Below are positions 37,401-40,400 of a DNA stretch of 64,000 nucleotides, piece by piece. This DNA is from Escherichia coli (GTDB lineage Bacteria > Pseudomonadota > Gammaproteobacteria > Enterobacterales > Enterobacteriaceae): the NCBI RefSeq assembly GCF_041248615.1, contig NZ_CP158426.1; one strand, 5' to 3'. The position numbers are program-made. The number at the start of each line of letters is the position of its first letter. Position 1 is the first letter of the stretch.

Positions 37401-40400
37401 GTCGCCGATAACCTTCTTGCCAAGAGCCCAGCGGTTTACCAGATTTGCCTGAGTTCCAAGTTTTTCTGCCATCCGCGTCTGAACACCATTGAATTCACGG
37501 TCGATCAAGTCGTTGAGATTTTGCCTGCGGACGTCCTGGATACTTTTCATTTTCTGGAAAATCGCCTCATATATGAATCAGTAGATGATTCAATTTAAAG
37601 CAATATTACCCAACAGGTAAATGCACCTCATAGGTAACTATCCTTGATTTTTGTTACCTTATGGGTGAATATTTATTATCTGAAATAAATATCAGGCAAT
37701 AGCTATGAGCGATAACGGACATTTCGATTTCAAAAAGCACTGGCTTGCACTTACTCCGGATGAGCGTGAAGCCTTCGCACAGGAAGCCGGAACGACGAGT
37801 CACTATATCCAGACTCACTTAACAGGTAAGCGCAAAATGCCAGGTAAAGTATTGATGAATGGGCTTTTTAAAGCCTGTAAAACAAGACAATGGCTGCGCT
37901 CAAAAGCAGAACTGGCATACTTCTTCTACTCATGATATCCAGCCACAACCCTCTGTAGACCGCCACCCGGCGGTCTTTTCATATCTATTCGTACCTCAAA
38001 GGTAATAAAAAACCAAATCTGGTTGATCTTTTTTTTGTGTCAGCACAAAATGACCGTAATCCCAATACTAATAACAGGGCTTACCATGGAAATCATTACA
38101 CGTATTGATGCCGCAAAGCGCGGACTTAAACGCTACTACACCGGAAAAACATGTAAGCACGGACATGACAGTGAACGCTGGGTTTACAACGGACACTGTG
38201 TTGAGTGCACCATGGAATCAAACCGTCGCATCAGGGCAGAGATTAAGCAGATCATGATTAATTCCTCCCCACAACATTCAAGCTGATAGCGGAGATTAAT
38301 CATGAGCAGACATGCAACAGATTGGGCCTGGGAGACAGATCCAGGTAGCTCGTCATTAAAGCTCATACTGCTCTCGATGGCTGACAGAGCCGATGAATAT
38401 AACCTCTGCTACCCCAGCATAGAACGCCTCGTTAAAGACACTTGCCTGAATAAAAAAACCGTGCAGGCCGGGCTTATATCGCTCATGAAAATGGGGCTTA
38501 TTTCAGATACCGGAGAGAGAAAGGGGGCGACGAAAAGAGTACGGGTTTTCTCTCTTAATATAACCAAAAACGGGAACATTAAAGGCAACCGGGAGGGGGG
38601 TAATGAACCCGAAAACGGTAATGTTACCGAAAACGGGAATATACCCAAAAACGGGATGTTGAATGATCCCAAAAACGGGATGTTGAATGATCCCAAAAAC
38701 GGGATCCAGAACCAGTCATATAACCAGTCATTTAACCAAGAGAGGGAGAGCAGGACAAAAAGCGGGGATTCTGTGCCTCATGACCCCGGCGCAAACAACG
38801 CCGTGATGAATAACTTTGTTCCTCCTGGTGGGCCAGGGCAATTAGGCAAATTTGTCATGCATGAACAATGGCAGCCATCAGATGACTTTCTTCGGAAAAG
38901 CTCATTGCAGGGGATCTACCTGGACAGTCTGCCAACGGCACAGGAACTTGCAGAGTTCAGAATTTACTGGATGGCTGAGGGTAAGGCATACCATCAGGCA
39001 CAGTGGGAGCAGAAGCTGGCAAGGCGGCTGCAGATTAGCAGACAGAAGCAATCAACATTACCTGATAACAACGTTCCGCACTGGAACAGCCCTGAAGCAT
39101 GGGAGGATTTCTTGTGAACAACGTTTTTACCGCGATACAAAACCGTGACGGAGAAGCCCTTTCTCGCATGTCAGGTTATGAGCATCAGTACGTCAACAAT
39201 GACAATGTGGTGAACATGTCAGCAGAGAGGCTTGTTGATGCCCTTTTTAAACAGCTGAAACAACTGTTTCCGGCGGCAGTGGTAACCAACCTGAAGACGC
39301 CAGAGCAGGAAGTTGCTGCAAAACAGCAGTGGATTGCTGCGTTTGCCGAAGGGGGGATCCGAACCCGTGAACAGGTTTCTGCTGGTATGCGCCACGCCCG
39401 CGCCAGTGAATCTCCGTTCTGGCCGTCTCCAGGGCAATTTATCAAGTGGTGCAAAGACAGCAAGATGGTTCTTGGCGTCACCATTGACGATGTGATGGCG
39501 GAGTTTCACCGGTACAGCAAGGAAAAAAGTTTATATCCTGGTGGTCCCGAAAGATTCCCGTGGCGACATCCGGTTATGTACTGGGTCGTATGTGATACCC
39601 GCCGTGCAATGTATCAGCGCCAGCTTAGCGAGATTGAGGTTGAGAAACACGCGCGCAGGCTGCTCGATGATTGGGCGAAAAAGGTGGCTTCCGGACAGCA
39701 GATACCCGATCCGGTGATCAGCATACAGGCAAAGCCAGAACCCATGAGTACACCTCCGGACACAGGGAGAGACGTTTACCATCCACCAGGGCGAAGTTTC
39801 GGGTGCATGCCTAACGCCGCCACCCTTGGGGGAATAACACCGGCGCAGTGGCTGATGGAGGAATACAGGCGGGGAAAGGCGGCAGGATTTATCAAGTAAT
39901 ACCAGCGCGATAGCGCATTTTTTTACGCCTCGACAATTACCTGTTAGGTAATAAAATATTCTAAAATCTATTGATTTCGTGTCTTATGTGGTTTTTAATT
40001 ACCTCAGAGGTAAATCATGAGAAAACAGATACAGGCTCTTGGTCGACTCAAAACAGGTCAGATGAACAAAACAGAATCTGCGTATTGCCAGCACCTTGAG
40101 CTGCGTAAACGTGCAGGAGAAATCGTCTGGTATCGATTTGAGGGTATCAAGCTGCGGTTAGCTGACAACTGCTTCCTGACTGTAGATTTTGCCGTGATGT
40201 TGGCTGACGGGCAGTTGGTGATGGTGGACGTTAAGGGAAGTAAGTCAGTCTTTACTGACGATGCGAGAGTCAAGATGAAGGTTGCGGCAGACAGCTATCC
40301 GTTTGTCTTTCAGGTTGCTTATCCAAAACCTAAAAAGCTCGGTGGTGGATGGGAGGTTGAGGAACTATGAGCGAGAAGCCCAATGCTGCGGGATTGATTG

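What the first reader, a model, noticed from the sequence alone, without database searches (positions are those of the whole stretch)
38564..38709. Replication origin iterons inside the O-like initiator gene, followed by a lambda-P-like loader
Six direct repeats of CC(C/G)AAAAACGGGA, including two identical 24-bp units, lie inside the initiator reading frame; the next gene is recognisably lambda-P-like. This places the prophage ori and indicates host DnaB-dependent theta replication.
Basis: partly seen in the sequence, partly recalled or inferred. Interest (0 to 1): 0.35.

Follow-up and report, generated by a model that had tools for sequence, protein, structure and literature searches.

The report
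Predicted replication origin of phiV10-like prophage
A cluster of six short palindromic DNA repeats inside a prophage replication-initiator gene is very probably the phage's origin of replication, built like the classic phage lambda origin; it is an ordinary, previously unannotated example of a well-known design.

Summary
Six copies of a 13-14 bp motif (T/A-CC-N-AAAAC-GG-G/T-A) lie at 38563-38704, inside a 271-aa gene (38302-39117). The next gene (39114-39899) is a clear lambda-P-family helicase loader.

The window is a phiV10-like (Uetakevirus) prophage integrated next to E. coli guaA.

The initiator has three parts:
- an N-terminal winged-helix domain (Pfam HTH_36);
- a predicted disordered linker, whose coding DNA carries the whole repeat array;
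- a C-terminal domain homologous to the ssDNA-binding domain of host DnaT, not to lambda O's C-terminus.

Evidence that the repeats act as DNA:
- All 78 close relatives whose repeat region could be read keep the array, with 4-9 copies (usually 6).
- Eight distant phage lineages with the same N-terminal domain carry the same palindromic CC-N6-GG core at the same place in the gene.
- Several of those lineages use spacings that are not multiples of 3, so the repeats fall in all three reading frames.
- Relatives with a different N-terminal domain lack the array.

The best reading is a lambda-type origin that depends on host DnaB. Nothing was tested experimentally, and no strongly AT-rich unwinding element is evident. 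It is a new member of a known kind, of low to moderate interest.

The parts
38302..39117 (+). Replication initiator gene (271 aa): winged-helix N-terminal domain, disordered linker, DnaT-type C-terminal domain
   Evidence: ORF. Pfam HTH_36 (aa 18-67, E 1.8e-10) and DnaT DNA-binding domain (aa 184-252, E 1.2e-15). PHROG 1032 'replication initiation protein', E 1.3e-108. RefSeq names it 'DnaT-like ssDNA-binding domain-containing protein'.
38302..38571 (+). Coding region of the N-terminal winged-helix domain (aa 1-90), the presumed iteron-binding domain
   Evidence: AlphaFold2 model has mean pLDDT 94 with topology H-H-E-H-H-E-E. Foldseek finds winged-helix regulators in the PDB and phage HTH_36 proteins in BFVD.
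38540..38584 (.). Least stable (most AT-rich) segment of the gene, at the left edge of the array and overlapping iteron 1; candidate unwinding region A
   Evidence: The 40-mer at 38545 has GC 0.30 and z 2.8 within the locus. Only 0.8% of prophage 40-mers are as unstable.
38563..38575 (+). Iteron 1 (ACCAAAAACGGGA)
38608..38620 (+). Iteron 2 (CCCGAAAACGGTA)
38626..38638 (+). Iteron 3 (ACCGAAAACGGGA)
38644..38656 (+). Iteron 4 (CCCAAAAACGGGA)
   Evidence: Invariant in 43 distinct alleles.
38668..38680 (+). Iteron 5 (CCCAAAAACGGGA; extended dyad GATCCC-AAAAAC-GGGATG)
   Evidence: Invariant in 43 distinct alleles.
38692..38704 (+). Iteron 6 (CCCAAAAACGGGA; perfect 18-bp palindrome GATCCCAAAAACGGGATC at 38689-38706)
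   Evidence: Invariant in 43 distinct alleles.
38710..38738 (+). Two and a half 12-nt direct repeats (AACCAGTCAT[A/T]T) immediately right of the last iteron; moderately AT-rich; candidate unwinding region B
   Evidence: TRF period 12, 2.4 copies. phiV10 has three copies. The 30-mer has GC 0.33, z 1.7. The homologous position is the least stable segment in GF-2 and Bcep176, among the three least stable in Vibrio Her, and the least stable in the lambda control. 'CAGAACCAGTCAT' is conserved in GF-2 and Vibrio Her.
38839..39096 (+). Coding region of the DnaT-C-terminal-domain-like module (aa 180-265)
   Evidence: phmmer against PDB chains of E. coli and Klebsiella DnaT (9zbt, 6aep, 4ou6), E 6.6e-21 to 7e-19. 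Pfam PF17948, 57.5 bits against a cut-off of 25.
39114..39899 (+). Lambda-P-family helicase loader gene. The probable start is GTG 39114, overlapping the initiator's TGA stop and preceded by GGAGG at 39102-39106.
   Evidence: Pfam PF06992, E 1.5e-56. PHROG 109 'P-like helicase loader', E 4.7e-92. BLASTP to lambda P: 31% identity over 203 aa, E 5e-36. A 786-nt CDS is annotated in phiV10 and in RefSeq E. coli.
37651..37679 (+). Promoter-like site upstream of the cro-like gene (37705-37935); the likely rightward early promoter that transcribes toward and through the origin
   Evidence: Weak consensus match only (9 of 12), not more than chance for the region. The position corresponds to the repressor/cro intergenic region with operator-like palindromes.

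Best explanation
The array at 38563-38704 is the replication origin of a phiV10-like temperate phage, built on the lambda plan.

Inferred steps:
1. After induction or infection, rightward early transcription produces the initiator and the P-like loader.
2. Dimers of the initiator's N-terminal winged-helix domain bind the six palindromic iterons, which lie in the DNA encoding the protein's own disordered linker. This forms an 'O-some'-like nucleoprotein complex.
3. The complex destabilises one of the two moderately AT-rich flanks: 38540-38584, or the 12-mer repeats at 38710-38738.
4. The clustered C-terminal DnaT-type domains bind the exposed single strand and/or the loader.
5. The P-like protein delivers host DnaB helicase, after which host primase and Pol III carry out bidirectional (theta) replication.

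Shown here: the sequence anatomy, the domain identities, and the conservation, co-inheritance and reading-frame independence of the repeats.

Inferred only: binding, unwinding, helicase delivery and the mode of replication.
For: 1. The repeats are real and non-random: 5 matches against 0.6 expected, all within 142 bp, and TRF agrees.

2. They are internally palindromic, as expected for sites bound by a dimer and as in lambda iterons (PMC7466680).

3. They lie exactly between the two folded domains. AF2 gives pLDDT 94 for aa 1-90, below 50 for aa 91-183, and a helical C-terminal domain. Lambda's iterons likewise lie mid-gene.

4. Close relatives keep the array.
- phiV10 has 6 copies and BP9 has 5.
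- Of 80 IMG/VR loci with a ~100% identical N-terminal domain, 78 could be read through the array. Two loci end near or within it. All 78 have 4-9 copies, most often 6.
- In 43 distinct alleles, iterons 4-6 never vary.
- Iteron cores vary at 5 of 78 sites against 10 of 71 between cores. This is a trend only.

5. Distant relatives carry the same core.
- Eight lineages sharing the N-terminal domain at roughly 35-50% tblastn identity carry 3-7 copies of the CC-N6-GG palindromic core directly after that domain. They are Edwardsiella GF-2 and EPP-1, Vibrio Her, Acinetobacter AP22 and Ab105-2phi, PPompW, Burkholderia Bcep176 and EBPR podovirus 1.
- An unbiased repeat-density scan puts the strongest local repeat cluster of each ~3.3-kb locus 213-360 nt after the start codon in 11 of 13 loci. 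The lambda control gives 316 nt.

6. The repeats act at the DNA level. In Bcep176, Vibrio Her, EBPR podovirus 1, GF-2 and EPP-1 the spacings include 17, 22, 23, 25, 26 and 34 nt, and the cores fall in two or three reading frames.

7. The array is co-inherited with the DNA-binding domain. Tyrion and a Klebsiella phage have the same DnaT-type C-terminus and P partner but a different N-terminus, and no array in the gene.

8. The outermost flanking base covaries between the two arms across lineages: 30 of 50 sites symmetric against 17.2 expected.

9. The partner gene is a P-family loader, and no phage helicase or primase was found.

10. No additional copies of the motif occur elsewhere in the window.

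11. Two 41-kb circular E. coli 'plasmid' records with no typed plasmid replicon are phiV10-like genomes carrying this module.
Against: - There is no experimental evidence of binding or of autonomous replication for this family in the papers searched.
- There is no strongly AT-rich unwinding element. The best flanks have GC 0.30-0.33 (z 1.7-2.8), against GC 0.23 (z 3.3) in lambda, so the melting site is undefined.
- In this window all six iterons are in one reading frame and encode a repeated peptide (xKNGxx). The window alone therefore cannot separate DNA-level from peptide-level repetition.
- The polymorphism contrast between iteron cores and spacers is small and not significant.
- The initiator is not a Pfam lambda O family member.
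- No DnaA boxes or IHF consensus sites lie nearby.
- The circular 41-kb records could simply be induced phage DNA.
Confidence: 0.8

Rival explanations
1. The repeats are initiator-binding sites, but their main role is regulatory: autoregulation, copy control by handcuffing, or exclusion of related phages by titrating initiator. DNA unwinding and helicase loading would then start elsewhere, for example in the AT-rich intergenic segments at 37980-38060 or 39900-39990.
For: The strongest AT-rich segments near the module are intergenic: 38002-38041 has GC 0.28, and 39930-39989 has GC 0.27. No lambda-grade AT tract abuts the iterons. Iterons in plasmids are known to serve both initiation and control (established knowledge; PMC3401445).
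Against: In every characterised relative of this design (lambda, Stx phages, with P22 and L by inference) the iterons inside the initiator gene are the origin (PMC7466680, PMC8022706). The moderately unstable segment right of the array is positionally conserved in GF-2, Vibrio Her, Bcep176 and lambda. The intergenic AT-rich segments coincide with a terminator or with promoter-like sites.
Confidence: 0.1
2. The repeats are only a slippage-prone peptide repeat in a flexible linker (xKNG-rich hexa- and octapeptides). They would set linker length and have no function as DNA.
For: In the window all copies are in frame, with spacings that are multiples of 3 (18, 24, 45), and they encode a repeated peptide in a predicted disordered region. 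Copy number varies by whole units among close relatives.
Against: In distant homologues the same DNA core recurs at spacings that are not multiples of 3 and in all three frames, giving non-repetitive peptides (Bcep176, EBPR podovirus 1, Vibrio Her, GF-2, EPP-1). Each unit is a palindrome, a property that has no meaning for a peptide. The substitutions between the cores are mostly non-synonymous, while cores 4-6 are invariant. The array is absent when the N-terminal domain is of another type.
Confidence: 0.05
3. The module is a decayed remnant: the prophage is defective and the array no longer functions.
For: Many E. coli prophages are defective, and the window alone does not prove inducibility.
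Against: Both reading frames are intact. The module is 97-99% identical to those of isolated, plaque-forming phages (phiV10, phiv142-3, PAS61). It occurs in 543 of 5426 complete E. coli genomes. Structural genes follow in the window.
Confidence: 0.05

Closest known systems
Bacteriophage lambda ori-lambda with O initiator and P loader (and the Stx-phage variants with six iterons)
   Same: - An array of 4-6 palindromic iterons sits in the middle of the initiator gene, in the segment between the DNA-binding N-terminal domain and the C-terminal domain (PMC7466680).
- The iteron sequences are similar in kind: lambda TCCCTC-AAAAC-GAGGGA, here TCCC-AAAAAC-GGGA.
- Spacing is 18-24 bp here against 20-24 bp in lambda.
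- The next, overlapping gene is a P-family loader.
- The early-right operon context is the same: repressor, cro-like gene, small gene, initiator, loader.
   Different: - The N-terminal domain is Pfam HTH_36, not Phage_rep_O. Direct profile comparison is not significant, and the only link is through shared PHROG profiles.
- The C-terminal domain is DnaT-type, with no detectable similarity to lambda O's C-terminus.
- The distance between the CCC and GGG half-sites is 3 bp shorter.
- There is no 40-bp tract at 23% GC beside the array.
- Direct 12-mer repeats stand where lambda has its AT-rich tract.
P22 gene 18 and phage L gene 18 origins
   Same: These initiators are distantly related or unrelated in sequence, and each carries its own set of iterons within its coding region (PMC8022706).
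   Different: Those phages pair the initiator with their own DnaB-type helicase (gp12), not a P-type loader. Their iteron sequences also differ, for example TGTCCAACGGA in L.
Phage initiators sharing the HTH_36-type N-terminal domain (PHROGs 1032, 6643, 391): Edwardsiella GF-2, Vibrio anguillarum phages, Acinetobacter AP22 and Ab105-2phi, PPompW prophage, Bcep176, EBPR podovirus 1
   Same: They share the same N-terminal domain and the same CC-N6-GG palindromic iteron core directly downstream of it.
   Different: The C-terminal domain and the partner gene are exchanged:
- lambda-O-type C-terminus with P in GF-2;
- DnaT-type C-terminus with a short P-like protein in PPompW;
- other C-termini with a DnaB-type helicase in AP22 and Ab105-2phi;
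- a DUF6475 protein in Bcep176.
E. coli DnaT (primosomal protein I) of the PriA-PriB-DnaT replication-restart pathway
   Same: The C-terminal ~85 residues are clearly homologous to the DnaT C-terminal domain (E 6.6e-21). That domain forms a helical filament on single-stranded DNA at the helicase-loading site (PMC13377028, PMC4132743).
   Different: There is no DnaT N-terminal oligomerisation domain. A sequence-specific winged-helix domain and an embedded iteron array take its place. The database names 'primosomal protein I' and 'DnaT' for this gene are therefore misleading.

Membership tests
Lambda-type phage origin (iterons inside the initiator gene) | Four or more direct repeats, each with internal dyad symmetry, clustered within the initiator's coding region | tested here: met
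   Six copies at 38563-38704. Dyad TCCC-N6-GGGA, with 6-bp arms in copy 6.
Lambda-type phage origin (iterons inside the initiator gene) | The array lies in the segment that encodes the interdomain linker of the initiator | tested here: met
   Iterons occupy codons 88-135. AF2 gives pLDDT below 50 for aa 91-183, between confident N- and C-terminal domains.
Lambda-type phage origin (iterons inside the initiator gene) | An AT-rich DNA-unwinding tract directly adjacent to the iterons | tested here: inconclusive
   The flanks have GC 0.30 (left, z 2.8) and 0.33 (right 12-mers, z 1.7). Lambda has GC 0.23, z 3.3 by the same measure.
Lambda-type phage origin (iterons inside the initiator gene) | Repeats conserved with, and specific to, the initiator's DNA-binding domain | tested here: met
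   Present in all 78 close relatives that could be read through the array and in 8 distant lineages. Absent from Tyrion and the Klebsiella phage, which have another N-terminal domain.
Lambda-type phage origin (iterons inside the initiator gene) | The initiator binds the iterons, and the fragment supports autonomous replication | not testable with these tools
   Requires EMSA or footprinting and a mini-replicon assay.
Lambda O protein family (Pfam PF04492 Phage_rep_O plus the O C-terminal domain) | N-terminal domain matches Phage_rep_O | tested here: not met
   No PF04492 hit; HTH_36 instead. hhalign of the N-terminal alignment against lambda O aa 1-125 gives probability 2.5%. The only link is indirect: both match PHROG 678 and 345 at overlapping profile positions.
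Lambda O protein family (Pfam PF04492 Phage_rep_O plus the O C-terminal domain) | C-terminal (P-interacting) domain homologous to lambda O's | tested here: not met
   hhalign of the DnaT-type alignment against the lambda/GF-2 O C-terminus gives probability 0.6%.
Lambda P helicase-loader family (Pfam PF06992) | Full-length match above the curated threshold | tested here: met
   191.1 bits against a cut-off of 26, profile positions 2-162 of 162. 31% identity to lambda P.
Lambda P helicase-loader family (Pfam PF06992) | Binds and delivers host DnaB | not testable with these tools
   Inferred from family membership and from the absence of a phage helicase.
DnaT (primosomal protein I) | C-terminal three-helix ssDNA-binding domain (PF17948) | tested here: met
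   57.5 bits against a cut-off of 25. PDB DnaT chains at E 6.6e-21.
DnaT (primosomal protein I) | DnaT N-terminal oligomerisation domain and overall ~180-aa architecture | tested here: not met
   The PDB match covers only DnaT residues 85-170. The N-terminus is a winged helix.
Pfam HTH_36 winged-helix domain | Match above threshold and a winged-helix fold | tested here: met
   40.9 bits against a cut-off of 25. The AF2 model has pLDDT 94. Foldseek finds MarR/Fur/BlaI-type winged helices and phage HTH_36 proteins.

The most novel reading that the evidence does not exclude
The winged-helix domain and its CC-N6-GG iteron array may form a portable 'origin-specifier cassette'. It would be exchanged as a unit among temperate phages of Gamma- and Betaproteobacteria and fused to interchangeable helicase-recruitment modules. 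In this phage the module is a DnaT C-terminal domain. Six iteron-bound dimers would concentrate about a dozen DnaT-type domains, which would filament on the strand exposed at the adjacent 12-mer repeats. This would mark the loading site for P-DnaB. It would be an origin-directed, PriA/PriB-independent use of the restart-primosome filament, parallel to the DnaA-like logic recently proposed for DnaT.
Probability: 0.3. Interest if true: 0.55.

Novelty: new member of a known kind. Interest (0 to 1): 0.3.

Why it matters
The finding locates the probable origin of a prophage type present in about 10% of complete E. coli genomes and of the O157-typing and biocontrol phage phiV10. Neither the phiV10 record nor RefSeq annotates an origin there.

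It also corrects a misleading gene name. The product is called 'primosomal protein I' or 'DnaT', but it is a sequence-specific initiator that has borrowed only DnaT's ssDNA-binding domain.

The comparative result gives a simple rule for finding origins in many unannotated phages: the same palindromic iteron core follows the same winged-helix domain across distant phages, while the helicase-recruiting half is swapped. It also offers a natural system for asking what the DnaT C-terminal domain does when tethered to an origin.

None of this overturns current understanding.

Tried and rejected
1. Homology between the DnaT-type C-terminal domain and lambda O's C-terminal domain, since both partner with P-family loaders. 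The first full-length profile comparison looked positive (probability 96.9%). That result was driven by GF-2, whose C-terminus is lambda-O-like. The domain-only comparison gave probability 0.6%, so the idea was rejected.

2. Direct homology of the N-terminal domain to lambda O's N-terminus. hhalign gave probability 2.5%. Only an indirect link through shared PHROG profiles remains.

3. Purifying selection on iteron cores within the population of close relatives. Cores vary at 5 of 78 sites against 10 of 71 between cores. This is a trend only, too few substitutions to be significant. A first pass was spoiled by one out-of-register mosaic allele, L036, which was then excluded.

4. Strict arm-to-arm covariation of the innermost flanking base. 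This is weak (23 of 50 against 18.2 expected, P about 0.06). Only the outermost position covaries clearly.

5. DnaA boxes and IHF sites near the array: none found.

6. A GATC cluster as an origin signature. There are three GATC in 60 bp at iterons 5-6, but nine places in the window reach that density.

7. Rfam families in the window. Only sroE and a tRNA were found, nothing at the locus.

8. Literature on a phiV10 or epsilon15 origin. Nothing is held in the library, and the original genome papers could not be read.

9. The IMG/VR scan aimed at distant relatives returned only near-identical ones, as the best 80. It was useful for copy-number variation but not for diversity.
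Full report
**1. The observation**

The sequence at 38540-38740 contains six direct repeats of a 13-nt core:
- 38563 ACCAAAAACGGGA
- 38608 CCCGAAAACGGTA
- 38626 ACCGAAAACGGGA
- 38644, 38668 and 38692, each CCCAAAAACGGGA

They are spaced 45, 18, 18, 24 and 24 nt apart.

Tandem Repeats Finder gives a 24-nt period with 2.6 copies at 100% identity (38644-38705), an 18-nt array (38599-38654), and a separate 12-nt array AACCAGTCATAT x2.4 at 38710-38738.

The degenerate pattern with up to one mismatch occurs 5 times in the 64-kb window, all inside the array. Shuffles give 0.6 on average, and 0 of 100 shuffles reach 5.

Each unit is itself an inverted repeat (TCCC-AAAAAC-GGGA). Unit 6, with its flanks, is a perfect 18-bp palindrome, GATCCCAAAAACGGGATC (38689-38706).

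**2. Context**

The window carries a prophage integrated beside guaA.
- The 2-kb replication segment is 100% identical to two E. coli chromosomes.
- It is present in 543 of 5426 complete E. coli genomes.
- It is 97-99% identical to phage phiV10 and its relatives, genus Uetakevirus.

The gene order is: repressor (36966-37550, minus strand), cro-like gene (37705-37935), terminator (37957-37976), a small ORF, the initiator (38302-39117), the loader (39114-39899), then a DUF1064 or resolvase-like gene.

No helicase, primase or polymerase is recognisable among the larger ORFs between the integrase (31867) and the terminase (44060-46206).

**3. The two proteins**

The initiator (271 aa) has Pfam HTH_36 at aa 18-67 and the DnaT DNA-binding domain at aa 184-252. 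It belongs to PHROG 1032, 'replication initiation protein'.

AlphaFold2 results:
- A confident winged-helix fold for aa 1-90, pLDDT 94.
- In the full-length model, pLDDT below 50 and no secondary structure for aa 91-183.
- A helical C-terminal domain.

The iterons (codons 88-135) and the 12-mers (codons 137-144) therefore lie in the DNA encoding a predicted disordered linker.

Foldseek finds only generic winged-helix regulators in the PDB, and phage HTH_36 proteins in BFVD.

The C-terminal ~85 residues match solved DnaT C-terminal domains at E 6.6e-21. That domain forms a helical filament on single-stranded DNA in the replication-restart preprimosome (PMC13377028; PMC4132743).

The loader matches Pfam Phage_lambda_P at 191 bits and is 31% identical to lambda P over 203 residues. 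Its likely start is GTG 39114, overlapping the initiator's stop codon, as annotated in phiV10 and RefSeq.

**4. Are the repeats functional as DNA?**

In the window alone this cannot be decided, because all six are in one frame and encode a repeated peptide. Related sequences settle it.

*Close relatives*
- phiV10 has six iterons and three 12-mers, and BP9 has five iterons.
- Of 80 IMG/VR loci with an essentially identical N-terminal domain, 78 could be read through the array. Two loci end near or within it. All 78 have the array, with 4 to 9 recognisable copies, most often 6.
- In 43 distinct alleles of the same length, iterons 4-6 never vary.
- Most changes between the cores alter the amino acid. 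The contrast is small: 5 of 78 variable sites in cores against 10 of 71 between cores.

*Distant relatives*
- A tblastn search of phage genomes with the N-terminal half found lineages at roughly 35-50% identity.
- In Edwardsiella GF-2 and EPP-1, Vibrio phage Her, Acinetobacter AP22 and Ab105-2phi, the PPompW prophage, Burkholderia Bcep176 and EBPR podovirus 1, the same palindromic core recurs 3-7 times directly after the winged-helix domain. Examples are ATCCC-AAAATT-GGGAT, GTACC-GAAATT-GGTAC, GTTCC-GAAAAC-GGAAC and GTCCC-AAAAAC-GGGAC.
- In Bcep176, Vibrio Her, EBPR podovirus 1, GF-2 and EPP-1 the spacings include 17, 22, 23, 25, 26 and 34 nt. The cores fall in two or three reading frames, so the encoded peptide is not repetitive.
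- An unbiased repeat-density scan of ~3.3 kb around each gene puts the strongest cluster 213-360 nt after the start codon in 11 of 13 loci. The lambda control gives 316 nt.

*Co-inheritance*
- Enterobacter phage Tyrion and a Klebsiella phage have the same DnaT-type C-terminus and P partner but an unrelated N-terminal half. They have no array in the gene.

*Symmetry*
- The outermost flanking base covaries between the two arms across lineages, 30 of 50 against 17.2 expected.
- The sites are not independent, because many are tandem duplicates.

**5. Comparison with lambda**

Lambda's four annotated iterons (39034-39118) lie mid-gene in O and in different frames. My stability measure correctly picks lambda's AT-rich tract immediately to their right (GC 0.23, z 3.3).

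Here the least stable segment of the gene is at the left edge of the array (38545-38584, GC 0.30, z 2.8). The right flank, the 12-mers, is only moderately unstable (GC 0.33, z 1.7).

The right-flank position is nevertheless the least stable segment in GF-2 and Bcep176 and among the three least stable in Vibrio Her. The sequence CAGAACCAGTCAT directly after the last iteron is conserved in GF-2 and Vibrio Her. Where the DNA melts remains open.

The N-terminal domain is not a Pfam Phage_rep_O member, and a direct profile comparison with lambda O is not significant. Both N-termini do match overlapping positions of PHROG profiles 678 and 345, which suggests a remote relationship.

The C-terminal domains are unrelated as far as I could test.

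The general principle, that lambda, P22 and L each carry their own iterons inside the initiator gene, is already in the literature (PMC8022706; PMC7466680).

**6. Mechanism proposed**

Winged-helix dimers occupy the six iterons, and the complex strains a neighbouring flank. The tethered DnaT-type domains then capture the single strand and/or the loader. The P-like protein brings host DnaB, and the host replisome completes theta replication.

Only the anatomy, the domain identities and the evolutionary behaviour of the repeats are shown. All biochemical steps are inferred from the lambda paradigm and from the known properties of DnaT and P.

**7. Rivals**

- A purely regulatory role for the sites, with initiation elsewhere, is not excluded (about 0.1).
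- A mere peptide repeat is made unlikely by the frame-independent conservation (about 0.05).
- A dead remnant is unlikely, given intact genes and near-identity to viable phages (about 0.05).

**8. Novelty and verdict**

The phiV10 record and RefSeq annotate no origin here. I found no paper in the held library describing one, and the original phiV10 and epsilon15 genome papers could not be read.

This is a new, unannotated member of a well-known kind of origin. The modest twist is that the initiator's helicase-recruiting half is a DnaT C-terminal domain, and that the winged-helix-plus-iteron half behaves as a cassette shared across distant phages.

Interest is 0.3.

Noticed in passing
window 37607-37621, 37624-37638, 37654-37668, 37992-38005: Operator-like palindromes of the form TTACC-N5-GGTAA lie in the repressor/cro intergenic region, with one more after the terminator. 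The same type occurs in Tyrion and the Klebsiella phage. They are distinct from the iterons, which have a 6-nt centre and CCC/GGG arms.
   Followed up: partly
L002 (PP488543.1, phage BP9, 138 kb) and PP350014.1 (phage PH444, 115 kb): A Vequintavirus-sized record and another large phage record carry the phiV10-type repressor-initiator-P module near a record end at 98-99% identity. These are probably chimeric assemblies or prophage contamination.
   Followed up: no
L099 (NZ_CP079771.1) and NZ_CP079768.1: Two 41,027-bp circular E. coli 'plasmids' with no typed plasmid replicon are phiV10-like phage genomes carrying this module at 99.4% identity. They are either induced phage circles or episomal prophages.
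   Followed up: partly
L013-L092 (IMG/VR relatives): Iteron copy number is polymorphic (4 to 9, most often 6), through gain or loss of whole 18- or 24-nt units. Initiator length ranges from 263 to 295 aa. A few alleles are truncated (182 or 231 aa).
   Followed up: partly
L003 (Tyrion) 2280-3047; L004 (Klebsiella phage) 2278-3045: These initiators have the same DnaT-type C-terminus and P partner but an unrelated N-terminal half with no Pfam match, and no iteron array in the gene. Where their origin lies is unknown.
   Followed up: partly
L097 (Pseudomonas phage PseuP_224) 1501-2202: The winged-helix match lies in an unannotated gap, and only a 76-aa 'primosomal protein I' CDS is called downstream. 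A different repeat (CCCCCGCAGGAGCTGC, four copies) sits in between. The gene is probably mis-annotated or split.
   Followed up: no
L095 (Moraxella phage Mcat8) 1801-2052: An 84-nt unit repeated three times lies inside the initiator gene. It contains sub-repeats (GGGGGTACAATTTTGCA) that differ from the CC-N6-GG core.
   Followed up: no
window 38665, 38689, 38703: Three GATC (Dam) sites overlap iterons 5 and 6. GF-2 iterons also contain GATC. The prophage encodes two DNA methyltransferase-like genes (33312-33962 on the minus strand, 41615-42100 on the plus strand). The density is not exceptional for the window: nine places reach 3 per 60 bp.
   Followed up: partly
window 40367-40975 (+): This 202-aa ORF has HNH-endonuclease PHROG hits (E 3.7e-23). 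It follows the DUF1064 gene and is not at that position in phiV10 or E. coli GF4. It may be a mobile HNH insertion.
   Followed up: partly
window 46853-46929 (-) and 7714-7805 (+): A tRNA-Arg(tct) gene lies inside the prophage, between the terminase and portal regions. The sroE small RNA lies in the chromosomal part of the window.
   Followed up: no
window 38505-38513 and 38547-38555: A 9-nt purine/pyrimidine inverted repeat (AGAGAGAAA ... TTTCTCTCT) lies just left of iteron 1, within the coding region of the conserved wing of the N-terminal domain. Its significance is unknown.
   Followed up: no
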